A DNA stretch of 64,000 nucleotides from Stegostoma tigrinum (Eukaryota): positions 16,239,479-16,303,478 of the forward strand of contig NC_081393.1 of assembly GCF_030684315.1 (NCBI RefSeq). The letters run 5' to 3'. Position numbers and translations under genes: made by a program. Positions 23,875 through 56,291 of this stretch are shown here, one piece after another; the first letter of the stretch is position 1, and every line of letters begins with the position of its first letter. The notes below the pieces were generated by a model. It did not search any database, was not told the DNA's origin, and was given only the letters and a program-made list of their open reading frames with translations.

Positions 23875-25598
23875 TATACACCTGCATTCCCATGCTGATG
23901 GTTTAAAAGCCCTCTGCTTCTTCCTGTCCCACAGACTCGACCAGTCCCCCTCCACTGACACCCTCGAGCGCTTAGCTGAACTTGTCCTCACCCTCAACAA
24001 CTTCTCCTCTAATTTCTCCCACTTCCGACAGACAAAGGGGGTGGCCATGGGTACCCGCATGGGCCCAAGCTATGCCTGCCTCTTTGTAGGTTACGTGGAA
24101 CAATCCTTCTTCCAAAGCTACGCTGGCCCTATCCCCCATCTCTTCCTCCGTTTCATTGATGACTTTCGGCGCCGCCTCATGTTCCCAGGAGGAGCTCAAA
24201 CAGTTCATCCACTTCACTAACACCTTCCACCCCAACCTTAAGTTTACCTGGACCATCTCTGACACCTCTCTCTCCTTCCTGGATCTCTCTGTCTCCATCT
24301 CTGGCATCCACCTGGAAACCGATATCCATTTTAAGCCTACCAACTTCCACAACTACCTAGAATATCCCTCCTCTCACCCACCTTCCTGTAAAAAGGCCAT
24401 CCCCTATTCCAAATTCCTTCGCTTCTGCCGCATCTGCTCCCGAGATGAGGCATTCCACTCCCGAACATCCCAGATGTCCTCTTTTTTTCAAAAACTGCAA
24501 CTTCCCCTCCACAGTGATCGGAAATGCCCTCGACCGTGTCTCCCGCAATTCATCCCTCACACCCCCTATCTGCAATAATAACCAAAATAGAATTACCACC
24601 CCACCAAACTCCAAATCCAACGTGTCATCCTCCGACATTTCCGCCATCTGCAATCTGACCCCACTACCAAAGACGTTTTTCCCTCCCCATCCTTATGTGC
24701 TTTCCGGAGGGACCACTCTCTCCGTGACTCCCTTGTCCGCTCCACACTCCCCTCCAGCCCCACCACCCCCGGCACTTTTCCCTGCAACCCAAGCAAGTGC
24801 TACACCTGCCCCTGTAGCTCACCCCTCACCCCCATCCCAGGCCCTAAGAAGACTTTTTGCATCAAACAGATGTTCACCTGCACATCTGTTAATGTGACAT
24901 ACTGTATCCGCTGTTCCCGTTGTGGTCTCCTGTACATCGGGGAAGCCAAACAGAGGCTTGGGGACCGCTTTGCAGAACACCTATGCTCAGTTCGCAACAA
25001 ACAACTACACCTCCCAGTTGCGAACCATTTCAAATCCACCCCCCCACCCCCCCCAACACTCCTTGGACGACATGTCCATCCTAGGCCTCCTGCATTGCCA
25101 CAATGACACCACCCGAAAGATGCAGGAATAGCATCTCATATTTCGCTTGGGAACCCTGCAGCCCAAGGGTATCATTGTGAACTTCACAAGCTTCAAAATC
25201 TCCCCACCCCCGACCACATGCCAAAACCAGCCCAGCTCGTCCCAGATTCCCTAACCATTCCTCCCACCTCAAGCCCCACCCCCATCCCCTACCCACCAAC
25301 CTCATCCCACTCCCCTGACCTGTCTGTCCTCCCTGGACAGGCCTATCCCCTCCCTAACTCCCCACCTAGATTCACTTTCACTGGCTCTAACCCCGCCTCT
25401 TTGACCCGTCTGTCTCCTCTCAGCCTAACTTCTCCTTTATCCATCTTCTATCCGCCTCCCCCATCTCCCTATTTATTTCAGAATCCCATTCCCCTCCCCC
25501 ATTTCTGAAGAAGGGTTCCAACCCTAAACGTCAAGCTTTCCTGCTCCTCTGATGCTGCTTGGCCTGCTATGTTCATCCAGCTTCACACCTTGTTATCT
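23875..25598 (+). mobile_element. Neptune-like Penelope element (family A), 5'-truncated and frameshifted
   Basis: GVAMGTRMGPSYA RT motif, GTFPCNPSKCYTCP linker, YCIRCSRCGLLYIGEAKQRLGDRFAEH GIY-YIG. Hammerhead at 25505-25532 has GAAA changed to TAAA. Confidence 0.94.
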
Positions 25599-26194
25599 AA
25601 GTGAGAAGTGTGCCTCCTATATTATTTATTAAAATGGAAGCATGCTCAGCACCTTTTTAGTTATCAAGCTATTGTAAGCAAGTAGAGAGTTCATTAAATT
25701 TATTGAAGCGCTTAACCAGGCTTTTGCCCCATTAATAAAATTATGTAGTCCTGCATTATCAAGATAATACAAACTGGTTCTGCAATTACAGCACTTACTG
25801 CAGTCCTGCATTCTTAAGTCTGTAATGCATAATCAGGACAACTTCAAGAAGAAAGACAATCATGATGGAAAATGTCTGTTGCTCTCAAAATTCCAATGTG
25901 CTGTTGGCATGTGCTATCTTGAGATATACTTAAGGGCAGCGCATACCAATGTGCACTTCTGTTGGGAAACATCCTTTTTGACTTGTTAGAAAAGACAGGC
26001 AGAGTTGTATTTATTGTACCCAGAGACCAAGATCTGAAGAGAATTTATTATTGCAATAAAGAGATAGCAAAGGACTTAAATCTGACATTAAATAAAGATA
26101 GTTTACAAATATGTTACTGCATTGGGCAATGCTTTTCCCTGGTTGTTACAATGGGTTTGTAGTGAAGTCACCAAACTAATGCTCAATTAATTGC

Positions 26195-26515
26195 GGGGGG
26201 CGGCACTGTGGCTTGGTGGTTAGCACTGCAGTCTCACAGCGCCAGGGACCTGAGTTCAAATCCACCCTTGTGCGACTGCTTGTGTGGAGTTTGCACATTC
26301 TCCCCATGTCTACGTGGGTTTCCTCCAGGTGCTCTGGTTTCCTCCCACAGTCCAAAAATGTGCAGGTTAGGTGGATTGGCCATGCTAAATTGCCCGTAGT
26401 ATTCAGGGGTGTGAGGGTTATAGGGGGATGGGTCTGGGTGGGATATATCAAGGGGCAGTGTGGACTTGTTGGGTTGAAGGGCCTGTTTCCACACTGTAGG
26501 GAATCTAATCTAATT
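26195..26515 (+). mobile_element. HE1-like V-SINE
   Basis: tRNA-like A/B boxes, V-domain, (AATCT)n tail; highly similar to 57818-58140. Confidence 0.93.
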
Positions 26516-26569
26516 ACCACATTATATGGGAATCTTTGGAATGGTGTTGAGACTACCTCAGGCTCATTT

Positions 26570-29500
26570 GTTTTCTACTCACTCATTGGATCTGGGCATC
26601 ACTGCTGGCCAGCATTTGTGGTTGTTCAGTAGTTGGTGGTGACATGCCTTCTTGAGCCACTCTAGTCTACGCACTGTAGGTTGACCCATAATGCACTAAG
26701 AGTGGGAATGTTTTTATTCGGCAACATTAGAGGAGATGGCAATATATTTCAAACAAAGGGTGGTGAGTGGCTTGGACGGGAATTTGCAGGAGGTATTGTT
26801 TCCATTTGTCTGCTACCCTTATCCTCCTAGATGGAAGTGATATGGGTTTGGAAGGTGCTCTCTAAACATCTTTGGTAAATTTCTGCAGTACATCTTCCTG
26901 CTACAGAGTGGTGGTGGTGGAGGGAGTTGATGCTCGTGGATGTGGTGCCAGTCAAGTGGGGTGCTTTGTCCTCTGGTGACAAGCTTCTGAGTGTTGTTGG
27001 AACTTCATCCATGCAAATAGGGAGTATTGCATCACACCCCTGACTTGTGCCTAGAAGGTGGTTAACCGGCTTTGGAGAGTCAGGAAATCAGTTACGAACT
27101 GCAATATTCCTACTCTCTCAGTGCTGTTTTAGCCACTGTCTTTATGTGGCCAGTGCAGTCGAACTTCTGATCCATGGTGACCCGCAGGATCTTGATAGTG
27201 GGTGATTCAGTGATGGTAATAATATTGATTGTTGGGTGGTGGTCGGTGTTTAGATCGTGTTTTACTGAAGCTGGTCATTGCCTCGCGTTTGTGTGGTGCA
27301 AATGTTACTTGCCACTTTTCAACCCAAGCCTAGATATTGTCCAGATCTTGTTGCATTTGAACATGGACTATTCAGTATGTGAGGAGTTGTGAATGGTGCT
27401 CAGTATTGTGCAGTCATGTGAACATTTCCATTTTTGACCTGATGATAGAAGAAGGTCATTAATGAAGCATAGAACTCAGAACATAGAACAAGACAGTGCA
27501 GAACAGGCCCTTCGGCCCTCGATATTGTGCCGACCTATGAACTAATCTAAGCCCCTCCCCCGATACTATCCCATCATCATCCATATGCTTATCCAAGGAC
27601 TGTTTAAATGCCCCTAATGTGGCTGAGTTAACTACATTGGCAGGCAGGGCGTTCCACCCCCTTACCACTCTCTGAGTAAAGAACCTGCCTCTGACATTTG
27701 TCTTAAATCTATCACCCCTCATTTTGTAGCTATGCCCCTTTGTACATGCAGAAGTCATCGCCCTCGGAAAAAGACTCTCATTGTCCACCCTATCTAATCC
27801 TCTGATCATCTTGTACGTCTCTATTAAATCCCCACTTAGCCTCCTTCTCTCCAATGAGAACAGACCCAAGCCCCTCAGCCTTTCTTCATAGGGCCTGCAC
27901 TCCAAGCCAGGCAACATCCTGGTAAATCTCCTCTGCACCTTTTCCAGTGCTTCCACATCCTTCCTGTAATGGGGCGACCAGAACTGCACGCAATATTCCA
28001 AGTGAGGCCGCACTAGCGTCTTGTACAGTTGCAGCATGACATCATGGCTCCGGAACTCAATCCTTCCACCAATAAAACCCAAAACACCGTAAGCCTTCTT
28101 AACAGCACTATCAACCTGGGTGGCAACTTTCAGGGATCTATGTACATGGACACCAAGATCCCTCTGCACATCCACACTACCAAGAATCTTTGCATTGACC
28201 CGGTATTCTGCCTTCCTATTATTCCTCCCAAAGTGAATCACCTCACATTTATCCGTATTAAACTCCATTTGCTACCTTTCAGCCCAATTCTGCAGTTTAT
28301 CCAAGTCTCCCTGCAACCTGCAACATTCCTCCACACTGTCCACCACTCCACCGACTTTAGTGTCATCTGCAAACTTACTAACCCATCCACCTATGCCTGC
28401 GTCGAAGTCATTTATAGAAATGACAAACAGCAGTAGTCCCAAAACAGATCCTTGAGGCACACCACTAGTAACCGGACTCCAGGTTGAATATTTTCCATCA
28501 ACCACCTCTCTTTGCCTTCTTACAGAAAGTCAGTTTCTAATCCAAACTGCTAAATCTCCCTCAATCCCATGTCTCTGCATTCTCTCCAATAGCCTACCAT
28601 GTGTAACCTTATCAAAGGCTTTACTGAAGTCCATGTACACCACATCACCTGTCCTACCCTCATCCACACGCTTGGTCACCTTCTCAAAACCTCAATGAGG
28701 TTTGTGAGACATGACCTGCCCTTAACGAATCCATGCTGACTATCTCCAATCAAATTGTTGTTTGCTAAATGATTATAAATCTTATATCTTATAACCCTTT
28801 CCAAAACTTTTCCTACAACAGACGTAAGGCTCACACGTCTATAATTACCTGGGTCATCTCTACTGCCCTTCTTGAACGAGGGCTCAACATTTGCAATCCT
28901 CCAGTCCTCTGGTACTAAACCTGTAGAAATGAGGACTCAAAGACCAAGGCCAAAGGCTCTGCCACCTCCTCCCTAGCTTCCAGAGAATCCTGGGAAAAAT
29001 CCCATCCAGCCCAGGGGATTTATCTACCTTCACACATTCTCGACTTGATAACACCTCCTCCTTTCTAACCTCAATCCTTTTAATTCTAGAAGCTCGTAAC
29101 TCAGTCTTCTCCTCTGCAATATTCGCCTTTTCCTGAGTGAAAACAGATGAGTAATATTCGTTTAGGACCCCTCCGATCTCCACAGGGTCCACACACAACT
29201 TCCCACTTCTGTCTTTGACTGGCCCTATTCCTCCCCTAGTCATCCTCTTATTCCTCACATACCTATAGAAAGCTTTAGGGTTCTCCTTTATTCCACCTGC
29301 TAATGTCTGCTCATGTGTCCTCCTTGCTCTTCTTAACTCTCTCTTTAAATCCTTCCTAGCTAATCTGTAACTCTCCATCGCCTCGTCTGAATCATCTCGT
29401 CTCATCGTCACATAAGCCTCCCTCTTCCGCTTAACAAGAGGTACAATTTCTTTAGTAAACCACGGTTCCCTTACCTTATCACTTCCTCCCTGCCTGACGG

Positions 29501-31569: not shown

Positions 31570-32615
31570 CTTAGAGTCACAGAGATGAACAGCACAGAAA
31601 TTGACTCTTTGGTCCAGCTTGTCCATGCTGACCAGATATCCTACATAAATCTAGTCCCATTTGCGAGCATTTGGCCTGGACCCTTTTAAACCTTTCCTAT
31701 TCGTATAACCATCTAGATGCCTTTTAAATGTTTTAATTGTAACAGACTCCACCACTTTCTCTGGCAGCTCATTCCGTACACGCACCACCCACTGCGTGAA
31801 AACGTTATCCTTGGATTCCTTTTAAATCTTACCCCTCTCATCTTAAACCTATGCCGTCTAGTTTTGGACTTCCGTAGCCTGAGGAAAAAACCTTATTTAT
31901 TCATCCCATCCATGCCCTCGTGATTTTATAAACCTCTATAAGGTCACCCCTCAGCCTCCACACTCCAGGGAAAATAGCTGCTGCCTATTCAGCCTGTCCT
32001 TATGGCTCAAACCCTTCAACCCTGGCAACATCCTTATAAATCTTTTCTGAACCCTTTTCATGTTTCACGACATCCTTCTTATAGCATGGAGACCAGAATG
32101 GCTGACACTGTTCCAAACGCGGCCTGACCAATGTCCTGTGCAGTTACAACATGACCTCCCAACTCCAAGACTCAATGCACTGACCAAAAAAGATAAGCAT
32201 ACCAATGCCTTCTTCACTGCCCCGTCGTCCTGGGACTCCACTTTCAAGAAACTATGAACCTGCCTCCAAGGTCTGTTTGTTCAGTGACAGTTCACAGGAC
32301 TTTACCATTACCCAATACCCATTGGCCCATCCGATTGTCTCATTGTACTGTGAGATAACCTCCTTAACTGTCCACTGCACCTCTGATTTTAGTGTCGTCT
32401 GCAAACTTTCTAACCAGACCTCCAAATTACTAAACATGCAAATCATTTATATAAATGACGAAAAACAATGGACCTGGCATCATCCTTGTGGTACACCACT
32501 GGTCACAGGCCAGTCTGAAAAGCAATCTTCCACCACCACCCACTGTCTTCTACCTTCAAGCCAGTTCTGTGTCCAAACGGCTAGTTCTCCTGAATTCCGG
32601 ATTATCTTACCTTGC
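31570..32615 (-). mobile_element. Degenerate CR1 LINE 3' portion
   Basis: Frameshifted RT/C-terminal motifs (gtgtaccacaaggatg, tttgcagacgacac). Confidence 0.85.
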
Positions 32616-34329: not shown

Positions 34330-34660
34330 AGATTTAAAAACCAGGTGGGAAAAATCACCAAGATAATAAAATGTGAGGCTGGATGAATACAGCAGGCCAA
34401 GCAGCATCTCAGGAGCACAAAAGCTGATGTTTCGGGCCTAGACCCTTCATCAGAGAGGGAATTCTCCAGCATCTGCAGTTCCCATTATCTCTGGGAAAAA
34501 TCACCAACGCTTCATCAGGGCAACGGACCCTAGAGTTTAAAAGCCAGGCGGGAAAACACGCCGACACTTCTTCAGAGGCTGCACTGAGGATGTTACCAAG
34601 CATGGTAACGAAACGTCTGCGGAACAGCAAACCAGCTCGACGAGCCAACCAACCTCACCA
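34330..34660 (+). mobile_element. Poseidon-type terminal-repeat fragment (partly tandem-duplicated) hosting a family A mini-insertion at 34362-34491
   Basis: Homologous to 3240-3370. Insertion flanked by 16 bp TGGGAAAAATCACCAA (34346-34361, 34492-34507). Confidence 0.85.
34579..34622 (+). ncRNA. Minimal type I hammerhead ribozyme motif, intact core
   Basis: Stem I CUGCA/UGCGG; CUGAGGA; extra U; stem II GUUACCA-agca-UGGUAAC; GAAA; palindromic ACGU stem III; GUC site with predicted cleavage after 34617. Confidence 0.85.
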
Positions 34661-34838
34661 GAAGCACCAAATAAGATCCATTCAATAATAAGAATAAAAA
34701 GTGTCAGTGTGCTTTCTGTGAGGTGCTTATACACCTTACTGTGGAATATCTTTCTAAGAAATAAAGCTTTATCCTATCTTGGCAATCTATCACTTCGTAA
34801 CCATCCATCACTGCTGTCAGAAAATTATAAGTAAATGC

Positions 34839-35229
34839 TGTTTTCATTAGAGAGAAGAAGGTTGGGAGGTGACTTAATTGAAACATATAAAATAATCAGA
34901 GGGTTAGATAGGGTGGATAGGGAGAGCCTTTTTCCTAGGATGGTGACGGCGAGCACGAGGGGGCATAGCTTTAAATTGAGGGGTGAAAGATATAGGACAG
35001 ATGTCAGAGGTAGTTTCTTTACTCAGAGAGTAGTAAGAGAATGGAACGCTTTGCCTGCAACAATAGTAGATTCGCCAACTTTAGGTACATTTAAGTCGTC
35101 ATTGGATAAGCATATGGACGTACATGGAATAGTGTGGGTTAGATGGGCTTGAGATCGGTATGACAGGTCGGCACAACATCGAGGGCTGAAGGGCCTGTAC
35201 TGTGCTGTAATGTTCTATGTTCTATGTTC
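34839..35229 (+). mobile_element. Young CR1 3' fragment
   Basis: Nearly identical to 5728-6118. TAAATGC duplicated at 34832-34838 and 35230-35236. Confidence 0.95.
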
Positions 35230-38200
35230 TAAATGCACAACACTCTAGTTGTTGGTCTTGTTTACAATATATTCATCCCAAGAATACATGAAAAAAAGTG
35301 ATGCTACATGTAGCTGATTGTGAGTGGCTCATTCGTCTCAGCTTTAAAGTTATTCATAGTCTCTTGAGCCTTAAATCCTTTTCAAACTGCTTTGAGAAAT
35401 GTAAAAACACCTTTAAACCATTGAAGCCGAGTCAAAGGTATATTTTGTTAACACCAGAAGCAGCACTTTGATCTCTAATAATATGTGCATCTAATACCTT
35501 AAAAGTTTGAAGTTCACTCATTGTTGAGGAACATTCACAGATTCCACAAAAATGAGAATGGTTGATTGTGTCTGCGAATGAAGAGGTTGAGAGGAGTGAG
35601 GCTATTTTCAGTTCACCTCCTTCAAGTGCCCCCTTAAGAAGGGTAAAGCACAATACTGACTAATCCTAAAGATGTACACTTGGACAAACCATTCTTACAA
35701 ATGAGAACAATGGCATGAAGGTAGTAATAAAGCAAAACTTTTATATGTCAAATATGTTTCTTTTTCCATATGATGGATTTTTATTCCAAGCAAATACTGC
35801 AATTTATAATACAACTAAAAGCCTACATATGTATTTCAGTTTTAAAATAATGTATGTTTCTCGAGCTCTAAAAGAGTCATTTTATATACTAATTCAAGAG
35901 AACAGATCAGCTAAGTGGTGCAAGATATAGACACTTGGCAAATTAGATTCAAAAGATATTAGGCCCAAAGAAATATAAACAGTTATAGATTATCACAAAC
36001 TAAGGTAGCAATTTTCGTGATTAATCCAGAATTGCCCTGCAATCGTCCCATCCCTCTTTTCATTAACATTTGTAGAACGAGTGCCCATGAAATCAAAAAG
36101 TTGCATTTATGTTACTTGTTTTTCTTCTCAAATCTGCAAGAACTAACATATATGTAGCAATTTTATCTGGTGAAGTATTTCAATGCCCTGCATAGGAATC
36201 CTATTAACTAAAAATTAAGCTAAGCTCCATAGGTGTTTGGACAGGTGGCCAAACCCTTGATTGAAGAACAGACTTTAAGAACTGTCTTAAAGAAGAAAAG
36301 TAGGGTTGAGAGGTTTAGGGAGGTAATCCCTGAACTGAGGGCCCAAGAATCTAAAGATATGATGGTCAATAGTGGAGTGATTAAAATCAGAAAATTATGA
36401 GACCAGAATTGGAGGAGTACAAAAATCTAGTACAGTATTGTAGGACAGTAGAGGTAAGATGAACCTTCCACAGAGAAATGACATGTTCCAACCTATATGC
36501 TGGCCACATGTCTTTTATGGTAAACCATGTAACTTAAGAGGACAATGAGTAAATTTCTTCCACATAGTTGAAATTTCTATTGTGTGGAAATTGCGTAATT
36601 CAGATTTTCTTTTGCATCATTTTAAGGATTTCCTAAAGTTTTAACTTCTAGAGAAAGGTTCACACATTGATTGGCTTCCTCCCTTTTCTCGTTAGAAGAG
36701 CTTGTCAAGATCTGTTGTAGCTTTTTTTTTCATATAGTTTCAGAACCTGCAGTTTCTTTTCATTTTATAATTTTTCCCGACTTTATTAATGCACCTTTAA
36801 TTGTAATATATGTTTACGTAGTGGTACAGAGAAAATCATGTATGCACAGACTTTGCAAGTCCCAAAAGTACTGGATTTATTTTGTTCACACAACTGTGAT
36901 GAAGGATGTATGATATGCACCTTACTTGTGATGTGTCACCAGGTTTCTATTTCCTGTAGATTTGTAATGCTTGTATTTCACATTCAGAAGGAACCTTATC
37001 ATTTTTAAATTGCCACTTGGATGAGAAACATGCAATGGTGGAAGATAATCTTAATTTTATCATGTGAATACAGACACCAAGGAACATCTGCTTGAACATA
37101 TTTATTATTCAGATTAAGGTTTTATTTAAAGCAGCCTCAATTGCTGTTTGATGTTTTAATTATCTAACAATCCATAGTGTCACATTCTGAGAATATTATA
37201 CGTGCAGATCAGCTTTGGAATTTTGTTGAGATAATCCTCTCTCCTGAATGTTGCCCTTTCAAGTATATGATGTCCAATCATTTGTTGTTCACATGACTTG
37301 AAAGAATAACTCTCCTTGCAATTGTGGACAAACTAAAGGTTCATGAGCATTCAAGGTGGCTTTGGTTTCTACTGCTCACGGACCTAACTGCAGAATTTAA
37401 TTTGTAAGCATGATTTGAGCTCATCTGGAATTTGTCATCTGTTTGCCAAGCACCTGTAACTGAAAATGTGTTTTCCTCATGCTATTCTCCAGATATTGAA
37501 ATGCTACAATAGAATTATTGGCAGGAAAGGTGCATGCAGAAGATCTGCTGTCTTTTAGCTTCAGGCCTTTCCCATCAGAAATTTCTGAGCTGAGTGAACA
37601 GCTGTCTTCACACCAGGCTGTCTGAGAGAGATTATGTACTCATGCTTGAACTGACGACAGCAACTACTTGCAGTAAGCTACCTCGATGAGTGTCACTGTG
37701 AAGTGACTCTACACAATTACTTCACATGAATCTTTTTGTTGTTTTATCAAAAAATAAATAGTTTTGAACTTTTTGAATAATTTTTCAGCTGATACTGGCA
37801 CATTCTGAGAGTTCAGGCTATTGATGAAAACTTCAATACTGTAGATTCATGGCACTTTGTTCACAGACATTATCTTTTAGAAATGAAAACATTAGCAGCT
37901 GCTGATTGTGAAGGGAGAGTAATTTCAGAAGATGTAAAATAACATTATAGGATTTTAATTCAAGTTACTGAAGCGATAGTGCCGATATTTATAGATAGGC
38001 ACGCACAGCGCACGCTTGTGAAAGAAGCAGTGTCACTTTACAAGTATTGTTATCCTTCAATAATATCCAGTGAAGTATACATCTTGTGCAGCCACTTTTC
38101 CCCTCTTTTTATTCTAATCTAAATACTCAGTTGTTGCTTATTTTTATGCAACAGTACTCCCTATTGCGAGGACCTGGGATAATTCTGGTATCCACCCTTC

Positions 38201-38233
38201 AGTGGTTTCAAATTACATTTCTCCTAATATTCA

Positions 38234-39434
38234 GAGATAATAAGAACTGCAGATGCTGGACAATCTGAGATAACAAAGCATACAGCTGGATGAACAAAGC
38301 TGGCCAAGCAGCATCTTAGGAGCACGAAAGCTGACATTTCGGATCGAAGATGGATAGCGGAGAAGATAGGTGGAGAGGAGATAGACAAGTTAAAGAGGCA
38401 GGAGTGGAGCCAGTAGAAGTGAGTGTAGGTGGGGAAGTAGGGAGGCGATGGGTCAGTCCGGGGAGGATGGACAGGTCAAGAGGGCGGGATTAGGTTAGCA
38501 GGTAGGAAATGGGGGTGCGGCTTGAAGTGGTAGGTGGGGATAGGTGAGAGGACAAACAGGTAAGGGAGACGGGGACAAGCTGGGCTGGTTTTGGGATGCG
38601 TTAGTGGGAGGGGAGGTATTGAAGCTTGTGAAATCCTCATTGATACCATTGGTCTGCAGGGTTCCTAAGCGGAATACGAGTTGCTGTTCCTGCAACCTTA
38701 AGGTGGCATCGTTGTGGCACTGCAGAAGGCCCAGGATGGACATGTCCTCTAAGGAATGGGAGGAGGAGTTGAAATGGTTTGCAACTGAGAGGTGCAATTG
38801 TTTATTGCAAACTGAGCATAGGTGTTCTGCAAAGCAGTCCCCAAGCCTCCGCTTGGTTTCCCCGATGTAGAGGAGGCCACAACGGCTACAGCGGATGCAG
38901 TATACTGCATTGGCAGATGTGCAGGTGAACATCTGCTTGATGTGGAAAGTCTTCCTGGGGATGAGGGTGAGGGAGGAGGTATGGTATCACTGTGGATTTC
39001 ACAAGCTTCAAAATCTCCCCTCCACCGACTGCATCCCAAAACCAGCCCAGCTCATCCCCGCCTTCCTAACCTGTTCTTCCTCACACCTGTCCCCTGCTCC
39101 CACCTCAAGCCCCACTCCCATTTCCTACCTGCAAACCACATCCCGCCCCCTTGAGCTGTCCGCCCTCCCCGGACTGACCCATCCCCTCCCTACCTCCCTA
39201 CCTACACTCACCTCTACTGGCTCCATCCCTGCCTCTTTAACTTGTCTATCTCCTGTCCACCTATCTTCTCCTCTATCCATCTTCAATCTGCCTCCCCCTC
39301 TCTCCCTATTTATTTCAGAACCCTCTCCCCCTCTCCCATTTCTGATAAAGGGTCTAGGCCCGAAACGTCAGCTTTTGTGCTCCTAAGATGCTGCTTGGCC
39401 TGTTGTGTTCATCCAGCTCTACGCTTTGTTATCT
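38234..39434. mobile_element. Neptune-like PLE in inverted head-to-head arrangement
   Basis: Minus-strand GIY-YIG and terminal repeat (38234-38978) joined to a plus-strand copy (38979-39434). Flanks tctcctaatattca / tctcctaaagttca. Hammerhead at 39342 has CUGAUAA (G8 changed to A). Confidence 0.9.
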
Positions 39435-39679
39435 CCTAAAGTTCACATTAATTCATTTCGCAAAATTACATGGTATTTATTCCATGTGTATGAGGACTAA
39501 TTTCTAGCCTCAATAATCAAATCGGACTGGATTAATTTAAGATATCTGGTTGGAAAGGGCGAGTTGGACTGAAGGGTATGTTTCTGTGCTGTATATCTTT
39601 ATGATCTAATTAAAAAGCTTTTTCTTAGAGTTTCATCTAACATAGTCACAGTAATCCATACTAGGGCAGAAAAACCACA

Positions 39680-40760
39680 AGACCATAAGACGTAGGAGTG
39701 GAGGTAAGGCCATTCAGCCCATCAAGTCCACTCTGCCATTTAAATCATGGCTGATGGGCATTTCAACTCCACTTCCCTGCACTCTCCCCGTAGCCCTGAT
39801 TCCTTGTGAGATCAAGAATTTGTCGATCTCTGCCTTGAAGGCATCCAACGTCCCGGCCTCCACTGCACTCCGTGGCAATGAATTCCACAAGCCCACCACT
39901 CTCTGGCTGAAGAAATATTGTCTCGTTTCAATTTTCAATTTACCCCCTCTAATTTTAAGGCTGTGCCCACAACTTCCTTGCGGCCACCCCTTCTAAGCCA
40001 TACATTATCTTGTAAGTTTCTATTAGATCGCCCCTCAACCTTCTAAACTCTAATGTGTACAATCCCAGGATCCTTAGCCGGTCATTATACGTTAAACCTA
40101 CCATTCCAGGGATCATCTGTGTGAATCTCCGCTGGGCATGCTCCAGGGCTAGTATGTCCTTCCTGAGGTGTGGGGCCCAAAATTGGGCACAGTATTCTAA
40201 ATGGGGCCTAACTAGAGCTTTATAAAGCCTCAGAAGCACATCGCTGCTTTTATATTCCAACTCTCTTGAGATAAACGACAACATTACATTCGCTTTCTTA
40301 ATCACGGACTCTACCTGCAAGTTAACTTTTAGAGAATCCTGAACCAACACTCCCAGATCCCTTTGTACTTCTGCTTTACGAATTTTCTCACCATTTAGAA
40401 AATAGTCCATGCCTGTATTCTTTTTTCCAAGATGCAAAACCTCACATTTACTCACATTGAATTTCATCAGCCATTTCCTGGACCACTCTCCTAAACTGTC
40501 TAAATCTTTCATCAGCTTCCGCACCTCCTCAGTGCTACCTCCCTGTCCACCTATCTTCGTGTCATCGGCAAACTTCGCCAGAATGCCCCCGGTCCTTTCA
40601 TCCAGATCATTAATATACAAGGTGAACAGCTGCAGCCCCAACACTGAGCCCTGCGGGACACCACTCGTCACCGGTCGCCATTCCGAAAAAGAGCCTTTTA
40701 TCCCAACTCTCTGCCTTCTGTCAGACAGCCAATCCTCAATCCAAGCCAGTAGCTCACCTC
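39680..40760 (-). mobile_element. CR1 LINE 3' portion, different subfamily, small internal deletion near 39970
   Basis: ORF 39955-40671 with PQGSVLG/KFADD, followed by C-terminal ORF 39714-39938. Confidence 0.92.
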
Positions 40761-40889
40761 GTTATAACTCTGGAGATAACTCAGCAAATCTGCAAGCACC
40801 AGTTGGGAGAGAATCACGTTTAACATTTCAAGACCAATACAATGATTCTTCAAGCTGAAACATAAAGCAGCTAATTTGATTTTCACCAT

Positions 40890-44200: not shown

Positions 44201-44283
44201 TCAAAGTAAAAGAGGAATTCTATTCACTGAATTGAATGGGGTTAATGGCAACATTTTTGAATGAGCACAGTGTGGCTTCAACT

Positions 44284-44665
44284 CACTTGAGTAAAAGAAA
44301 AATACTGTGGATGCTTGAAACCTAAAACGAAAAAAGAGAATGCTGAAGAAAGTCATTTCAGAGATAGTAGGAACTGCAGATGCTGGAGAATCTGAGATAA
44401 CAAGGTTTTCTGAAGAAGGGTCTCGGCCCAAAACGTCAGCTTTCCTGCTTCCCTGATGCTGCTTGGCTGGCTGTGTTCATCCAGCTCTACACCTTGTTAT
44501 CTCTGCTAAAGAAAGTCAACAGGTCATGTAGCATCAATGGAGAGAGAGACAATGTTAACATTTCTAGTGTCGAGTGTGACTGTTCTTCAGAAGGAAAGTG
44601 AAGACATACTGGACTCAAAATATTAACTGTGGTTGCCAGACCTGCTGAGTTTCTCCAATGTTTTT
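44284..44665. mobile_element. Family C PLE fold-back insertion containing a nested family A mini-insertion (44356-44503)
   Basis: Outer direct repeat TGGCTTCAACT (44273-44283, 44666-44676). Inner repeat TGCT(G/A)AAGAAAGTCA (44341-44355, 44504-44518). Hammerhead at 44410 has GAAA changed to AAAA. Confidence 0.85.
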
Positions 44666-45684
44666 TGGCTTCAACTTGCTGTTAAATTGCAAGTTCAAGC
44701 TGCATGTTAAATTGCAGTGAGCATTCCATTGTGTTTTTGCAATAAGCTGAGAGATATAAGCCAGATTTAAACACTTTGGTTTGCATTGCATCGTATCTTT
44801 TCATTAATAGACATGTTATTTTATTCCACGACTTGTGAAATTTGCAGTCTGATTTGCAAATCAGCAGTCATGCCTTGACAAAAACTAAAGTTGTTCACAA
44901 CCAACATAAAATAACGAATAAAGTTACATGAATACACTCAAAACTATCAAAATAAATACAAAGAATGAAGCATTTATTGCCTGATCTTGAACTATGTGTG
45001 CTGAGCTTCTTTTTCTGCCTCTAGCACCTGTAACTAGGTTGGGAAAAGTACGCAAGAGAGGACTAAAATAGTCAACCAGTTTTAGTCATTTTAAAAAATT
45101 TCTTCCTCTTTGGGGTTGTCCATCGCCAACTCAGCAACTTTCATCTGTTCTGTATTAATATATTTTACAAATCTACCTCACGGTTGCACTGACTCAAGGC
45201 CACTTGCACATCAGGTTTCAAAGCCAGTTTCCACTAGTTGTTCCCACTGACTTTGATAATCTTTCTGCATCTGATTGTAAAGAATCACATGGGGAGACTT
45301 CAATCACAAAAATGCAGCGTTGATATTTATTGAAATGTTATTTCGTTACTGTGCTGTAGTTGCCCTATAGACTAAATAATGGCACTTTGTGAGTGGTACC
45401 CTTCAATGTGCCTAGGTAACTGCAAAAATCATGACGGGCAACTTCCAGGGAAGTTCTAAAAAGGGGTCATTGGACTTGAATCATAATTCTGTTTTCCGTC
45501 CTCAGGTGCTGCCATACTTGCTGAGTTTCTCCGGAATTTCTGTTTTTATGTTAAGAAAGTGGCATTCTTTTCTGAGATACAGACGTGATGGGCAAAATGA
45601 GATTCCTCCTGTGCGTTATTATTCTCTCATCTCTGGAGCCATTGTGTTTCACCAACTGTTTCTTTGCCTTTCCTTCTTCAACAG

Positions 45685-45749
45685 GGTGTTTGCCGATTGC
45701 CAGATGATAGTGATGGTAGTGATTATCCCTTCAGGAGAATTGACATTAG
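45685..45749 (+). CDS. POLB: DNA polymerase beta, internal exon (equivalent to human exon 12, 65 bp)
   Basis: Polypyrimidine tract and CAG acceptor, GTAAGT donor at 45750. Translates GVCRLPDDSDGSDYPFRRIDI(R), matching human [22 protein letters not shown] including catalytic D256. Confidence 0.96.
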
Positions 45750-48700: not shown

Positions 48701-51367
48701 ACAAAATTACCTGGTTAGTATTGGATAGTGTTCTATAATTTTACAAAATAATTCAATAATTAGTAATAGTTAGCATCTTTGAGCTGGCTTAGTTTTACCA
48801 CTCATGACTGTGAATTAAGTATATCTTATCTGTGGCATTAGCCAACGGTTCTAATACTCCTGAGCAAATCTCTCATCTTTTTCATAAGTGACTGTGTGGT
48901 CTGTGTGGTCTTTGTTTGTTCATTTTAAAGCCATTAGTTCAAGCAGAGTTGAGTTTGGGATGGCAGTTTGTCATTATAAAACATTGCAAATCCTTTTGAG
49001 ACACTCAGTTATAAACTGTACTTTGTGTTTCTAAATTGTCTAAGTTTTGTTCATCTTGCTGAAAGGGATCAATTCACATAGGTTAACAGTGGTTAGTTTC
49101 AGCTCATTTTCTAAGGATTGAGCTCGTACAGCTAAAGTATTCTGAAATTTCAGGTGATAGTTGCTCATCAAAGATAGAGGAGTGATCTCCATGGAAAATG
49201 GGTCAAAATCCTGGAATTCCCTTCCTAATAGCATTGCAGGTCAACCTACAGCAGGAGGACTGCAGCGGTTCAAGAAGGTAGCTCACCACCACTTTCTCAA
49301 GGGCAACTAGGGATGGGCAAGAAATGCTGGCCAGCCAGCGACACCCACATCCCACAAACAAATAGAAAAAAAAGTGTACCTCTCTTCAACTGTTTCTGCT
49401 TATTCAAAGTGTTGCTTCTTGAATGTGAGCACTTGCAATGTCTAATTGCCTGATTATTCAATCAGAAAGCTCACAGTTTCAGGCAATAAACAATCTCCTA
49501 AATTGACAGTAAGGGAGGGGGAGGTAGCACTGCTCATTGTGGCGCTGTTATTGGATGCAGTTTGCGATTCATTTCAATGTGCCTCAGTTTCTAGTTTATT
49601 TTCATATGATAATTTTCACAAGCCTCGTTTGATAAACGAAAAATACTCCCAATTCTTCTATTATCCTGTCCCCTAAAAGGGACTAGGCAGTTCGCCCACT
49701 CCTGGCAGAGTTTATCCAATTCCAAAACAAAGTTAATCTTTTTTTTAAATGGACAAGAAACTTATAAGTGAGCGACAACTGCTCTGGAGTAACACTGTAG
49801 AATAACCAGAAATTAACTAAGCAGAGAGATTGAATCATAATGCATCTTCACTGGGCCACAAATAACCGGTCATTAGAATGATTGCTGAAATAGAGAAGGT
49901 GGTTTGAATGATAAAGTAGGACTTTTTAGTGTGCGGATGCTGGGAATGAGTGAGTTTACCCAAATGTGATCTTTTGTTGAATGCTTGTGGAAGATAAACC
50001 AAGGAAATGTCAAATGGCGCAGTCTGTTGGGCAGATGTGGATTCTTGCATTTAAGATATTTCTAATGACCCTATTAGAAATACCTAGATTTATAGTCAAC
50101 TTTCCCCAAACTAATGTAAATTTAACGTGTATTTTGCTTTTATGTCTAGATATTGTTTAATGGTGCACTATCATGCTTTATTTTCAGTTTTGTATATCAG
50201 CTCAGATTGCTGTGTGTTCCCCATTGTGGTTTAGGTTTTGTCTTTGTTTAGCCTAAGCACGGTAGACCTCCCATACTGCCAATCTTGGTTCTTCCCATTC
50301 ACATCAGAACAGAGTCTCCAATTGAAGCCATGGACTGACTACTTCTCTCAACCCCGGTACAACAAGCAATTTTCAATTTAAAGTCAACTGAAAACAGCTT
50401 GATGTGCATTCTTTTTTAAATAAAAAGTGACATTTTGCTTAAATGAAGGTTATGAAATTCTAACCATTATGATTAGAAAAATTGCCTATATTTAAGAGGC
50501 ATTCTGCTATTTTATTAAGGCTTCTGTTGAATTGCCTATGTGAAGACTGTGACTGATTTAGATTACCCTGCCACTTTATCTAGTAACCTCTTAAATAAAA
50601 TATGCTTTTATTTGCTTTTGGCCCCTCCATATAGTTTTCAAATCATGTCATACATATTACTTGGCTCTAACTGATTATATATCTACTTCAACACAACCGA
50701 TTATATATCTATTTAGTTGACCAGTTTAGAGTTGTTAAACAATAATTTAGGCCACAGGAAGTTAAACATAATTGCCACAGTTTCCGGTACAGGTTAACAA
50801 GGCAATCCTGAATTAAATATTAATGTGATGATTTATGCTTAATTTTATGTAATTTTGTTGGTAACCTCTTCTGACTGTAATCTGTAAATTCAGAAGTGGC
50901 AATATGTTATGGAGAGTATGAGCACTGCTCTGTTAAAAACCTCATTCTGAAATAGATCATGGGGTGAAACTTACTTCACATCTAGTCCATGATACTTCCC
51001 TTTATTTAGTCTTTGTCCTTGATGTATGCATTTTGAATATATTCTCTGTTCGGACTAGAACGTTTCTTTGTCTATTCAGTCTTGGAGCACCGTGCCCATA
51101 TTTGTGAAAATCACCTGCAGGTGTTACTTACTCTGGTTGTATCATTGAAGTCAATGATTACGTATCAAACGTTCAGAAATGATGCTGAAGAGGATGCAAC
51201 TATGCCTCAGAAGGAACTTTGGGTTGTCTCTGTTTTCAATCTTGAAAGTTGGTTCCAGATGCCGGTATTTCAAAATTAAACAAATTATGTATTTATCCAG
51301 CCTTCCATGTGACTCACTTTGGCCAAGTTTGGGGTTCAAACACTCTGACGACCCAGTATTGTTTTAA

Positions 51368-51564
51368 GATAACAAGGAGTGGAGCTGGATGAACGCAGCA
51401 GGCCAGGCAGCATCAGAGGACCAGGAAGGCTGACGTTTTCTGAAGAAGGGTCCAGATCCGAAACGTCAGTTATCCTGCTTCTCTGATGCTGCCTGGCCTG
51501 CTGTGTTCATCCAGCGCCACTCCTTGTTATCCCAGACTCCAGCATCCTACTATCTCTGAGTCAA
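51368..51564. mobile_element. Family A PLE fold-back mini-insertion just upstream of POLB exon 13
   Basis: ~70 bp inverted arms plus tail. TATTGTTTTAA duplicated at 51357-51367 and 51565-51575. Confidence 0.9.
51438..51469 (+). ncRNA. Minimal hammerhead ribozyme motif, intact core, weak stem I
   Basis: CUGAAGA-A-GGGUC-ca-GAUCC-GAAA-CG-UC; predicted cleavage after 51467. Confidence 0.65.
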
Positions 51565-51631
51565 TATTGTTTTAACTTGTGTCTATTAAATTTGGAATCT
51601 CACTGCTGACTGTGCATTTCTCCTGTTGCAG

Positions 51632-51771
51632 GCTAATTCCAAAAGATCAGTATTTCTGCGGTGTGCTTTATTTCACTGGCAGTGATCTTTTTAACAAGAA
51701 CATGAGGACCCAAGCACTAGAAAAAGGCTTCACATTGAATGAGTACACAATTCGTCCTTTGGGAAGCACAG
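51632..51771 (+). CDS. POLB: DNA polymerase beta, internal exon (equivalent to human exon 13, 140 bp)
   Basis: tgttgcag acceptor, GTAAGA donor. Encodes (R)[46 protein letters not shown](G), with the YFTGS, N279 and R283 motifs of Pol beta. Phase continues from exon 12. Confidence 0.98.
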
Positions 51772-53456
51772 GTAAGAACTGAATGATATTGGAAACTTAA
51801 TGTTTTTACAGAGTTTGCCTGCTGACTAAATCAACCAAACTGACGAAGATTCCTTCTTTATTAACTGGGTTAAATGAAAAGTATGTATCTAGTTTGGAAT
51901 TAAATCACTAAAATTCTAATATCATTTGATTACATTTCAGAAATACTTCCGAATGGAAGAACTTTGCTAAATAAATGTTAAAGTTGGACATTGTCACCCT
52001 GATGGAATATTTACAACTTCAGTTACTTTTTTTCCCCTTCAGAGGGCTGAGGCTTGTATATCTGAAGAAAAGTTAATCAATGTATATCCAAATGCATGTA
52101 CTAGGCTTTACTTTGTTGCAGTTTTGGAAGCATGGCAACGAAACATCGTGAAACTCCACTTTTTTTTTCTTCTGTCAAAAAGACTTGGTGCTTTAGAAAC
52201 TGAAATTCACGCAAATAGTGTATTTCTTCTTGAGGTCTCATTTTGTGCAGATAATTAGTCACAAACTGGAATAATACAACTTAATCTTGTTCTTGGCCAA
52301 TGTACTTTCTCCCAGTCTGATAAATAACTGCTCACTGCTACAAGCTGCTTTTGTCCCTTGGTAAATTTAACTTCTACACTGCCACCATCCTTTTTGTTGA
52401 GAAAAAGCTGAGAATGCCTCTGTCCAAATCCCACCTGCTCTAAGCATGTCACATTGATTGATTGAAAAATATAAAATCCAATACAGGAGAGTTCTTTGGT
52501 GCAGTGTTAGTTTTCCTATCTCTAAGCCAGAAGGCCCAGGTACAAGTCCCATCTGCCTCACATGTGTACCATGATATCTGATTGGTTTTTAAAAAAAGTC
52601 TTTAAATCCAACAACGAATTCAGGGAAAGGAATAGAAGTAAATACTGATAAAATGAGATTAATAGGAAGTGGGAAGAGGCTTGCGAGCTATGCAAATGCT
52701 AGCATTACCAGGTGGGCTAAATGTTCTGTTTTTCAGCTGTAGGTGTGACTTTTCTGTTAAGCAGTATATTGAAAGTAAGTTGAGTTCAAATGACTGAAAA
52801 AGACAGCATCTTCAGTGTTTCTTTGTTCAAGTAAATCTTGAACTCAATAAACTTGTCTTTCTGTGGTTTGCTGTGTTTTTCATTATGGTGTAAAAGAAGT
52901 TGTATCTTAAGAGTCTATGATTGCTTGACTTTGGTGCACTGGATGGTGAGAAATTATTTGTTTCGTAGTTGGTCAGAATTTATAGTGAGTGTCACTGGTG
53001 AATTGTGCAAATCATCATTTAATTGCTGGCAGTCAAGACCATGTTAGTGGTTCAAAAATGTATCTTCGTACATGTGGCAAGAAAAAGTCACCTTCTAGCT
53101 CATTACTCTTCTAATGTCAGAACTGAATTTTTGAATTGATTCCAGGTTATTGACTCTTTCTTCAGCCTGTGTACGACATAAAATTTCTCTTTGAAGAGCA
53201 ATATGTGGAAATGCCTGGAGTTTGTGATTTTCAGCCATTATAGAACCATAACAGCCAAAGTCTTTGCAATACTTTCCTAAATTTAGAAGTCTTAAACAAC
53301 TCCTGGTGTCAGCCTCTGCCCCATTTCGTAACAAGTGAGCCACAATTGCAGTGGGACATAAAATAAGATTGATAGTGGCAATATCTAATTATACTATTTA
53401 AGTGTGTGTGTATAGTGGCATTCCCATGGCAGTAACTCTTAGAATTAGGGGATGTA

Positions 53457-53784
53457 TAGAATCACAGAACCCCTACAGTGCAGTTAAAGGCCACTCAGCC
53501 TATTGGACCTGCACTGACTGTCTGAAGAGCATCCCATCCCCACCCTATCCCGTAATTCCCACATTACCGCAGTTAATCCACCTAACCTGCTCATCCCTGG
53601 ACACAATGGGGAAATTTAGCATGGCCAGTCCACCTAACTGCAGATCTTTGGACTGCAGGAGGAAACGGGAACACCCAGCTCAAACTCTCACAAAAAAAGG
53701 AAGAACATGCACACTCCACATAAGGCTGGCATTTTTCCTGGGTGCCTGGTACCATGAGGTAGCAGTGCAAACCACTGTGCCACC
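53457..53784 (-). mobile_element. HE1-like V-SINE, diverged
   Basis: Reverse complement of the V-domain and tRNA-like head (aatttagcatggccagtccacctaac...). Confidence 0.85.
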
Positions 53785-54707
53785 AATTTGTGTTTTGTTT
53801 AATTATCAGATTTATGACATAAGCGTGATACAAACAATGAATGTGGCACTTGCAACAAATACATGCTTTTAATTAGACTTAAAATTATTTAAAATTTGCA
53901 TTTGTAGTAGACTTCATTATTGTCGACGAAAAATCAAAACATTGAAGGCCTGTAGTATTTTGATCTTAGTCCGATACATTTGACAGTGAAAAGAATCTTC
54001 TTTTGACAAAATCAGTTCAAAACTTTCACATTTACCAATGGCCTATCTTTATTTTAAAAAATTCTATTCAGACTGCAGACCAAAGACAAGTAATGCTGTA
54101 ATGGCCTCTTTAAATTCTCAATCAAGGTGTGAACTCAGAATTCCATGCTTAGGTAATTGTTGCTTTTGAAACTGAGCCAAGCATTCATAATGACATAACG
54201 ATCGTCTTTGGGGAAATATCAAACACTACCAGTTGTTGCTACTTTTATCTAAGCTGTCAGTCAAAACAGTCCACCAGAAAGGTATTTTAGAAACTGTTTC
54301 AATGACAGCTACAGCTTGTTTTTTTCTTAAAACTGATTGAGCACAGCATTGAAAAAAAACTCCAGACCAAGTCAGTGTACTAGCCATATTTGCCCTTCAA
54401 GTATGTTTACATCTGCTCCAAGAGATTGTATTTCTGCAAAGTGTCGATCTGAAGAAGAATTATATTGGACTCAAAACGTTGACTCTGTTCTTCCCTCCAC
54501 AGATGTAGCCAGACCTGCTGAGTTGTCTGCCACTTTCTGGTTTAACTTAAGATCTCCAGCACCTGCAATACTTTGTTTTTTGTCTGGTTTAAATGGCCCC
54601 TGCTGAGTTTGTGTTTCCTTACTTGTGTGAATCACACCCTGCTTTCCAGCTGTGCAAAAGTCTGACCGACCTGTCTACCCTTCATTAGTATGGTTGGCCT
54701 GGTCATT

Positions 54708-54806
54708 GTCATTTTTCAGTCAACCTTTATGACACACCTCTGAAACAGATAAGACTTGAACTGTGGCCTCCTGTTTCAGAGGAAGGAACACTACCATTAG
54801 AGCCTC
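54708..54806 (-). mobile_element. Short (~100 bp) tRNA-like SINE with 13 bp target-site duplication
   Basis: TGGCCTGGTCATT at 54695-54707 and 54807-54819. Related copies at ~19000-19115 (-) and ~52485-52595 (+). Confidence 0.7.
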
Positions 54807-56160
54807 TGGCCTGGTCATTATTTACAGGTTGGGAATAACTTGTACCTTCTTCCTATTTGAACGCCTGGTCTTCCCTTGAACCTTGAGGAACAGAATGACT
54901 GAAGCTTGTTGTGGGGCTGAACTTATGACGGGTCATGTGATCCTCTTCATCTCTCCATTTCATCTGAGAGAGACAGTGCCAAGACATAAGAATGCTGCAA
55001 ACCTCACTTGTGACAAGGGGCATAGACCTCTCAAAAGTGGGATTCAGATTCTCCATCTCACAGAAAGGCTGAAAGGAAGTTTTGCAGACAGCGTTGATAC
55101 TAGATAACAAAGTGTAGAGCTGGATGAACACAGGCCAAGCAGCATCTTAGGAGCACAAAAGCTGATGTTTCAGGCCTAGACCCTTTGTTAATTTGAAACC
55201 TCAGTGTGATGTGTGTTTATCAGAGGTATCCAAGGATATGGGGCAATGCTGGGTTTGTGCATTTAGGTCACGTCGGCTGTCATCTCATTGAATATCAGCA
55301 GAACAGATTCAAGGAGCTAAATGACCAACTCCTATTCCAATGATCTTACTCATGCTGAGAAATACTAGAAGTCAGAATTAGGTACACTTCCGCAGTGAAA
55401 TGTTAATTGTCATAATCTTGCACAAGCTACTCCATACTGCCTTGAGCTTTCATTAAAAACTATCTCATTTGTTATTTAATATTTCTGTTTTTGATAGTTT
55501 AGTGTGCATGATAAAAGGTAGAACTATCTTTCAAAATTTCTGTACTACAAAAACAGCTTACCGTGGAAATACATGTAAGACCTTAATTAGACTATTGCCG
55601 TGGTTTTCCAGAGTTAGAATATTAATCGCTGCTTTTATTCACAACATGTTAGCCAATTTTAGTTTGGCTTTCCTACCGAAAAAGGATTGAACTAATTCAT
55701 GAAAATATGTTAAGCGTCTCAGAGTTCTACCTCTGGTACCTCATACAGCAATTACATTTAACAGATAAATCAGAAGCATGAGTGTCACATGCTAACAGCT
55801 TGCCAGTGTTCAACGAAATGAGAAACAAGCAGGCAGAGTGAAGAAATTGTTTCCAGCATAGACTGCAAAATGAGCAGAAGGTGAGAGTAGAATGTTTGAC
55901 CATATGTTTATTCCTCATGTTCAGTCATTGGACTTCAGATGGTAGTTCAGAAGACTGCAATTGTGAAAAGGTAGATTTGAGAAATTTTTGTAAATTTGGG
56001 GAGGCTGAAGGGGTTAAAAAATCAGCTGTGAGGACTCAATGTTCCTGCCTGGTACTCCGGTGGTTAGTTTCCCTGACCCAAGAAATCACAGCTTCTTCAT
56101 TATTCTTTTATTCAAATAAATCTTGTCGTGAATGCTTTAAACTTGTTCTACTGTACTGTG

Positions 56161-56291
56161 GTCAGAAGTCACATGACACCAGGTTATAACCCAACAGGGT
56201 ATGATTTCAGATAAACCTGTCGGACTATAACCTAGCATCATGTCACTTCTGACTTTGTCTGCCCAAGCCCAACACTGGCACATCCACATGA
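56161..56291. mobile_element. Fold-back mini-insertion of a fourth repeat family with the same architecture
   Basis: Arms gtcagaagtcacatgacaccaggttata / tataacctagcatcatgtcacttctgac plus tail. Flanks CT(A/G)CTGTACTGTG (56148-56160, 56292-56304). Confidence 0.75.

What the first reader, a model, noticed from the sequence alone, without database searches (positions are those of the whole stretch)
25590..55110. Six family A copies terminate at the same nucleotide (TTGTTATCT), with the downstream tail placed in the opposite orientation
Seen: one arm ends at TTGTTATCT (or starts at AGATAA on the other strand) at 25598, 34361, 39434, 44502, 51367 and 55102. Where present, the following ~40 nt tail (attctccagcatctgcagttcccattatctc) lies at the other end of the insertion in the opposite orientation (34461-34491, 38234-38268, 44360-44395, 51531-51557). 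A tail-only copy sits at ~16998-17040. The tail ends in a second TTATCTC. Inference: this is a genomic footprint of a fixed internal reverse-transcription start, with the second target end primed from the true RNA 3' end, i.e. a two-ended integration mechanism.
Basis: partly seen in the sequence, partly recalled or inferred. Interest (0 to 1): 0.7.

Follow-up and report, generated by a model that had tools for sequence, protein, structure and literature searches.

The report
Penelope retroelement tail signature in shark
The shared end point and the flipped 35-base tail are real and match the published insertion scar of Penelope-like jumping genes, likely made when both cut ends of the target DNA start copying the element's RNA at two fixed internal sites, so the pattern is ordinary for this class.

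Summary
Observation confirmed, with corrections. Family A is a Penelope-like retroelement (RT, CX4CX2C linker, GIY-YIG; 84% identical to a whale-shark protein) with a minimal hammerhead motif about 93 nt before the arm end. All 6 named ends stop at ...TTATCT or 1 nt later. 5 of 9 units tested (4 named, plus 457-667) sit in 12-16 bp target duplications, each with one tailless and one inverted tailed end. The tail is usually not alone: 4 of 6 tails carry their own arm, which reads through TTGTTATCT. In whole-genome contigs the tail end is a sharp peak (429 and 435 contigs at one base). This anatomy is in print (PMC3846280, PMC8557442), and PMC11167929 showed in vitro that two internal RT starts bound the tail and both target strands are extended. 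The 'true RNA 3' end' is not supported: no poly(A), and in relatives (L017, L037, L081) the module continues into the ORF. Priming from both nicks is inferred (about 0.65). The scan noted this anatomy before in other shark or fish windows. Already known; interest 0.2.

The parts
23891..25598 (+). Long 5'-truncated family A copy: RT and GIY-YIG remnants, 3' UTR, hammerhead motif, arm ending TTGTTATCT; no tail, no duplication found
   Evidence: tblastn with P0001, 72-85% over residues 12-402 in pieces
24783..24809 (+). CX4CX2C linker motif between RT and endonuclease (C65-C73 of the 24591-25106 frame)
   Evidence: translation; definition in PMC8557442
25505..25532 (+). Minimal hammerhead-type motif (CTGA core at -93, GAAAC-GTC box at -66 from the arm end), decayed
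   Evidence: no Rfam hammerhead match; activity untested
34346..34507 (.). Composite unit: 16-bp duplication (34346-34361), tailless arm on - (34361-34459), tail on + (34461-34491), duplication (34492-34507, 16/16)
38220..39445 (.). Composite unit: tail on - (38233-38267) joined to arm, 3' UTR and endonuclease remnant on - (to 38983), then + copy 38983-39434 ending tailless; duplication 8/8 by script, 12/14 by eye
44341..44518 (.). Composite unit: duplication (44341-44355), tail plus 12 nt of arm on - (44356-44406), tailless arm on + (44407-44503), duplication (44504-44518, 14/15)
51354..51575 (.). Composite unit: duplication (51354-51367), tailless arm on - (51367-51438), arm plus deleted tail on + (51437-51561), duplication (51562-51575, 13/14)
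55102..55189 (-). Solo tailless arm, no duplication found
444..677 (.).
7705..9535 (-). Second long 5'-truncated copy, tailless, arm end decayed (0 to +2); no duplication found
17009..17038 (+). Tail-only copy, no duplication found

Best explanation
These are truncated insertions of a Penelope-like retrotransposon whose halves end at two fixed points 35 nt apart and share one target duplication, likely because both nicked target strands prime reverse transcription at two internal sites of the element RNA. Shown: class identity, the two end points, the one-tailed head-to-head layout, the duplications. Inferred: the GIY-YIG domain would nick both strands 12-16 nt apart; one 3'-OH would start at site A (arm end), the other at site B (tail end, 35 nt downstream); both cDNAs would stop early, be joined at their 5' ends and be filled in by repair. 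Site B is likely internal to the RNA too, since the module is the 5' leader of the next ORF. Confidence in the class and the known tail signature is about 0.95; in priming from both nicks about 0.65.
For: Class: P0001 (Rhincodon typus) 84% and P0002 (Stegostoma tigrinum) 77% to the 24591 frame; P0001 has GIY-YIG above the Pfam cut-off and a weak RVT_1 match; family A groups with them at 97 SH-aLRT in a quick tree. Single events: duplication scores 16, 12, 11, 10, 8 for the 5 composite units; 0, 0, 0, 2 and 25 of 2985 random pairs reach them; 0 of 72 non-cognate pairings reach 10. Both halves look like the same subfamily in 5 of 5 units (by eye). One tailed and one tailless end in 5 of 5 family A units, 3 of 3 of an older sister family and 1 of 1 of a distant family, and in 3 of 3 duplication-bounded units of relatives (L002, L047, L054). 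Units 34361 and 44359 have a 98-99 nt tailless arm but 0 and 12 nt of arm on the tailed side, which a simple fold-back cannot make. Genome-wide: loose ends at 38233 in 429, 435 and 127 contigs of runs X1, X2, X5 with flank agreement 0.37-0.38; strand-switch joints at 38276/38339 and 38334-38342. In print: two internal starts bound the tail, both strands are cut and extended, no homology to the target is needed (PMC11167929). Leader continues into the ORF in L017, L037, L081, and 3' ends of L011, L012, L088 fall inside that leader.
Against: 4 of 9 units tested have no duplication and one end only (55102, 17009, 25598, 7705). The 38233 duplication is marginal: 2 of 72 non-cognate pairings reach its score. 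PMC11167929 saw no difference in start site between the two strands, so it does not by itself predict one tail per unit, and it does not state a two-nick pairing model. Palindromes lose arm sequence after insertion (established knowledge), which could turn fold-backs into the asymmetric units. The arm end was not seen as a peak, because the reference copy has a mismatch cluster at 38277-38285. In relatives the ends are two-peaked but broad (10 tailless ends spread over about 16 nt). Read-through into the ORF was shown for relatives of other families only, not for family A itself.
Confidence: 0.65

Rival explanations
1. One priming event at the tail end, then the cDNA folds back on itself and copies itself up to the arm end, where it is joined to the second target end; asymmetric units arise by later deletion of one arm.
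For: Units 457-667 and 51367-51561 are near-symmetric palindromes; self-priming was proposed for head-to-head palindromes in PMC3846280; it predicts one tail per unit directly.
Against: Units 34361 and 44359 lack most or all of the arm on the tailed side; in 38233 the tailless half holds the hammerhead segment that the tailed half lacks; solo and long tailless copies (25598, 7705, 55102) end at the same point without a tailed partner.
Confidence: 0.15
2. One cDNA is made through the tail and the endonuclease then cuts the intermediate at the arm/tail boundary, so that the tail ends up at the other end.
For: PMC8557442 ascribes the tail to endonuclease-mediated resolution; PMC11167929 cites that the D. 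virilis endonuclease needs the tail for recognition. Tail-only pieces begin near the arm end (34461, 17009; L072).
Against: Does not explain tails that carry 12-715 nt of their own arm while a second full arm lies opposite; both boundaries are RT starts in vitro.
Confidence: 0.11
3. One reading: site A is internal, but the second target end primes at the true 3' end of the RNA.
For: The tail end is very sharp genome-wide and no common continuation is seen behind it; PMC11167929 saw a weak band likely from 3'-end priming. A family A RNA that ends at the tail was not excluded, since no RNA run was available.
Against: No poly(A) after 6 of 6 tails; the module continues into the ORF in three relatives; pLTR plus tail encodes the first 22 residues of the ORF in A. 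vaga; 3' extensions did not move the main product in vitro.
Confidence: 0.07
4. The halves are independent insertions or later rearrangements, and the shared end is a by-product of alignment or of picking copies by their ends.
For: Copies are 75-93% alike and old; 4 of 9 units lack duplications.
Against: Duplications enclose both halves in 5 units far above chance; all 8 tailless arms and all 6 tails end in two narrow windows; genome-wide peak.
Confidence: 0.02

Closest known systems
PAc, Poseidon element of Anolis carolinensis (Frangieh et al. 2024, PMC11167929)
   Same: Two fixed end points bounding a 30-40 nt tail downstream of a hammerhead motif; no homology to the target needed; A/T-rich flanks.
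   Different: Family A has the CX4CX2C linker (Neptune/Nematis type, not Penelope/Poseidon). No stable stem-loop at its start sites (fold z-scores 0.2 to 1.4); both sites follow a TATCT(C) motif instead. The paper does not treat the inverted partner or the duplications.
Canonical EN+ Penelope-like insertion unit: inverted 5'-truncated pLTR, tail at one end, duplication (Arkhipova et al. 2013, PMC3846280; Craig et al. 2021, PMC8557442)
   Same: Identical layout: inverted partial copy at the 5' side, 30-40 bp tail at one end only, flanking duplication, tail continuing into the ORF start.
   Different: Duplications here are 12-16 bp against 8-10 bp in the A. vaga examples seen; most units here are under 250 bp. 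Those papers explain the layout by self-priming or endonuclease resolution.
Minimal hammerhead motifs of metazoan PLE pseudo-LTRs (Cervera and De la Pena 2014, PMC4209133)
   Same: CUGANGA, one bulged base, G-C closed helix II, GAAAC-GUC with no helix III loop.
   Different: Helix I is only 2 bp here (3 bp in the relatives); no copy ends at the predicted cut site.
L1 twin priming (recalled, not read here)
   Same: Both target nicks prime on the RNA and give a 5' inversion inside one duplication.
   Different: L1 starts on poly(A) and its second primer anneals by microhomology at variable sites, giving halves that do not overlap; here both starts are fixed, the halves overlap, and there is no poly(A).

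Membership tests
EN+ Penelope-like elements | RT followed by C-terminal GIY-YIG endonuclease in one ORF | tested here: met
   P0001 maps in order along 23891-25242 and 9436-8087; Pfam GIY-YIG 23.2 bits on P0001 (cut-off 22.6), RVT_1 E 9e-5 below cut-off; window frames give only sub-threshold hits. Window copies are broken by frameshifts.
EN+ Penelope-like elements | CCHH motif in the endonuclease | tested here: met
   C108, C111, H130, H146 of the 24591 frame (read)
EN+ Penelope-like elements | Inverted 5'-truncated copy and 30-40 bp tail at one end, target duplication, no poly(A) | tested here: met
   5 of 9 units
EN+ Penelope-like elements | Hammerhead motif in the pseudo-LTR | tested here: inconclusive
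   Core boxes and helix II present, helix I 2 bp, no Rfam hit; cleavage not testable
EN+ Penelope-like elements | Partial tandem with the terminal module also ahead of the ORF | tested here: inconclusive
   Seen in relatives L017, L037, L081; no full-length family A copy available
Neptune clade | CX2-5CxxC linker between RT and endonuclease (shared with Nematis) | tested here: met
   CNPSKCYTC at 24783-24809; CNRRKCYTC in P0001; definition
Neptune clade | RT phylogeny with named Neptune references, apart from Nematis | not testable with these tools
   No named references on hand; the tree is a quick tree of unnamed rows
Penelope/Poseidon clade | No Zn-finger-like linker | tested here: not met
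   Linker is present
Naiad/Chlamys | N-terminal endonuclease, no canonical hammerhead | tested here: not met
   Endonuclease is C-terminal
Non-LTR retrozymes | Tandem head-to-tail hammerhead-bearing units | tested here: not met
   No head-to-tail array of the module in the window; definition in bioRxiv 10.64898/2026.07.22.740005

The most novel reading that the evidence does not exclude
A protein dimer sits on one RNA across the 35-nt tail and primes both target nicks in a fixed order, so every two-ended insertion has exactly one tail; the tail-primed cDNA often stalls where the other one started (3 of 6 tailed halves stop within about 12 nt of the arm end); and most short copies come from the 5'-leader copy of the module and run off at an RNA start just before the hammerhead core (6 of 7 short arms begin at -87 to -100). 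This would be a strict pairing rule and a third fixed boundary that the papers seen here do not state, testable on thousands of shark copies.
Probability: 0.3. Interest if true: 0.5.

Novelty: already known. Interest (0 to 1): 0.2.

Why it matters
How Penelope-like elements finish integration is still open, and this shark family has many short copies in which both ends and the duplication can be read, so it is good material to test whether the two known RT start sites are used one per target strand. It also extends the two-start picture from the Poseidon clade to a linker-bearing (Neptune-type) family. The pattern itself and internal initiation are published, so the gain is confirmation and a test set, not a new mechanism.

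Tried and rejected
No whole genome is held for this window, so a full end histogram could not be built. Rfam at E<=1 gave 13 matches, all microRNA models on palindromes and below their gathering scores, none a hammerhead. Exact pattern scans for the arm end found 0 loci in metagenome and viral contigs. No RNA holder listed, which says nothing on expression. No solved structure related to P0001 (best E 0.1). Folding of 5 arm/tail stretches showed no excess structure (z 0.19 to 1.37), so a PAc-like stem-loop at the start sites was not found. Microhomology priming rejected: 0-1 matching bases after the arm end in 6 of 6. Hammerhead cleavage as the source of any boundary rejected: cut site is at -65/-66, and none of 9 5' ends tested lies there (nearest -72). 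Duplication tests failed for 8 of 10 units of other families and for L027 and L084. The careful tree did not finish; a quick tree was used. Paper searches 'Penelope + twin priming' (3 papers listed, not opened, none on PLE mechanism by title), 'Penelope + Neptune + shark + Poseidon' (0) and a 2024+ cryo-EM search (1 unrelated) found no explicit two-nick model and no description of this shark family; subscription papers are not in the library.
Full report
OBSERVATION. The window is 40.6% G+C and dense in repeats. The six named ends exist: TTGTTATCT at 25590, 39426 and 44494, AGATAACAA at 51367 and 55102, and AGATAATAA (one mismatch) at 34361. An alignment of 14 stretches and a base-by-base check show that the six leave the read-through sequence at 0 or +1. 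In all the window holds 12 arm copies, 8 tailless and 4 that read through into a tail, plus 2 tail pieces without arm. All 8 tailless arms end within about -1 to +2 (two are decayed), and all 6 tails end at TAT(C/T)TC(T) followed by at most 4 bases that are not part of the duplication. The tail is 35 nt (38233-38267). No tail is followed by poly(A).

SINGLE EVENTS. I tested 9 family A units for target duplications. Five have them: 16/16 (34346/34492), 14/15 (44341/44504), 13/14 (51354/51562), 12/13 (444/665) and 8/8 (38220/39432; 12/14 by eye). Of 2985 random pairs 0, 0, 0, 2 and 25 reach these scores; of 72 non-cognate pairings none reaches 10 and 2 reach 8, so the last is marginal. Four units have none (55102, 17009, and the long copies ending at 25598 and 7705, whose far ends I estimated). 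Each of the five has one tailless end and one inverted tailed end joined head to head; by hand, 0.5^5 = 0.03 under independent choice. An older sister family shows the same layout in 3 of 3 two-part units (57487-57676 with a 15/17 duplication; 62172-62362 and 10283-10395 without a significant one) and a distant family in 1 of 1 (59260-59482, 13/14). Two further palindromes (11336-11506, 56161-56253) could not be classified and are left out of that count.

WHAT THE ELEMENT IS. The long copies carry RT and GIY-YIG remnants. The closest proteins are from Rhincodon typus (84%) and Stegostoma tigrinum (77%), so the host is likely a carpet shark (inference). The linker CNPSKCYTC fits the CX2-5CxxC motif that PMC8557442 gives for Neptune and Nematis (passages seen). 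A minimal hammerhead-type motif starts 92-93 nt before the arm end, of the kind described in PMC4209133 (parts 1-2 of 4 read); Rfam does not detect it.

GENOME-WIDE CHECK. No assembly is held, so I laid 4 of 22 listed runs on 38150-38450. Runs X1 and X2 (one study, same species label) laid 34273 and 33798 contigs. Loose ends at 38233, the tail end, number 429 and 435, and 127 in X5 (another organism), with flank agreement 0.37-0.38 and A/T-rich letters: a sharp end with unrelated flanks. Only six places per run are printed; neighbours of 38233 are not among them, so each holds fewer than about 250. The arm end is seen only indirectly: alignments break at a mismatch cluster and give 278 and 299 loose ends at 38284, whose consensus keeps the arm end and four more letters and then decays (agreement 0.57). 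That fits mostly tailless ends with some short read-through but is not a histogram, and tailed contigs are selected out of it. Strand-switch joints of both kinds seen in the window occur in contigs and raw reads. Loose ends at 38342 (469, 501) run on to three bases before the hammerhead core and then decay, matching the window, where 6 of 7 short arms begin at -87 to -100 and one at -72 (the 12-nt arm and the deleted arm left out).

RELATIVES. Scans with a 14-protein alignment returned 88 loci (hosts not determined; 41-73% identity to the query). One family gave 28 module copies: 17 scored as tailed, 11 as tailless, one of which (L053) is a decayed tailed copy by eye. Tailless ends lie at -18 to -34 and most tailed ends at +28 to +36 of the tail core, two peaks but broad ones over mixed subfamilies. 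Of 5 units tested for duplications, 3 have them (L002 16/16, L047 13/13, L054 19/22) and each is one-tailed; L027 and L084 failed. In L017, L037 and L081 the module lies ahead of the ORF and runs on to its start codon, and the 3' ends of L011, L012 and L088 fall inside that leader. So the end points are internal to the element in these relatives; for family A this is inferred.

WHAT IS IN PRINT. PMC11167929 (parts 1-2 of 4 read, covering abstract and main text; keyword passages; supplement 1 as figure text only; Fig. S2 and the .gbk file not seen, and these may bear on how genomic ends pair up) shows that the anole element cuts and extends both target strands, starts at two internal sites, and that the tail is the sequence between them. 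PMC3846280 (passages) describes an inverted pLTR, a 31-bp tail at one end, 8-10 bp duplications, and the tail as part of the ORF start, and proposes self-priming. PMC8557442 (passages) calls the inverted copy and one-sided 30-40 bp tail typical and ascribes the tail to endonuclease resolution. PMC2377424 (passages) places the promoter and RNA start in the pseudo-LTR. PMC9977147 (passages) reports de novo insertions of median 128 bp. Of bioRxiv 10.64898/2026.07.22.740005 I read part 1 of 5. Searches found no explicit statement that the two nicks use the two sites, and no description of this shark family; older subscription papers on the class were not searchable. L1 twin priming is recalled, not read. 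The scan's own notes report the same anatomy in other shark or fish windows.

MECHANISM. Shown: two end points, one-tailed head-to-head units, duplications, class. Inferred: staggered nicks 12-16 nt apart, priming at site A from one nick and site B from the other, early stops, joining and repair. For this reading: units 34361 and 44359 have a full tailless arm but 0 and 12 nt of arm on the tailed side, and solo tailless copies end at the same base. Against: palindromes can lose an arm later, the in vitro work saw no strand preference for either site, and four units show one end only.

VERDICT. Real, non-random, and the known Penelope-like tail signature. Already known; interest 0.2. What remains open is whether the one-tail rule is strict and whether the boundary before the hammerhead core is an RNA start.

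Noticed in passing
window 34459, 44407, 51437, 55189, 548/549; loose ends at 38342: 5' ends of short family A arms cluster at the upstream edge of the hammerhead core (6 of 7 at -87 to -100), not at the cut site (-65/-66); seen genome-wide as well.
   Followed up: partly
window 21518-21679, 22407-22517, 45452-45571, 54447-54593, 57487-57676, 62172-62362, 10283-10395, 40770-40853, 44605-44673: Older sister family with a homologous arm and tail and the same one-tailed inverted layout; a diverged GIY-YIG remnant lies at 21863-22193.
   Followed up: partly
window 6130-7030 (-), 3608-3721 (-), 3234-3382, 34492-34663, 59260-59482: A second, distant Penelope-like family (27% to P0001) with its own hammerhead motif; 59297-59482 is a 97% perfect palindrome with a one-sided extension and a 14-bp duplication. 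The family A unit at 34361 sits inside a copy of this family's module.
   Followed up: partly
window 11336-11506: 171-bp palindrome, 97% perfect, single copy in the window, no duplication found; origin unknown.
   Followed up: no
window 56161-56253: Decayed palindrome, single copy, possibly the end module of another Penelope-like family; no significant duplication.
   Followed up: no
window 25590-25598 and tails: Both start sites follow a TATCT(C) motif, and the arm end is followed by CAG after a pyrimidine run, which resembles a splice acceptor; not tested.
   Followed up: no
window 4505-6116, 27459-28901, 31723-32598, 34837-35227, 39955-40761, 61186-61539: RT-bearing LINE remnants (Pfam RVT_1 E 8.5e-31 for the 4505-5770 frame); a young 3' end is 95-97% identical at 2924, 5964 and 35071.
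   Followed up: no
L080-L088: Animal-type Penelope-like elements lie in contigs of two bacterial metagenome-assembled genomes, which suggests host DNA contamination in those bins.
   Followed up: no
L072:3947-4001, L030:1974-2027: Tail-only pieces in relatives that begin near the arm end; L072's is inverted and abuts the truncated ORF.
   Followed up: partly
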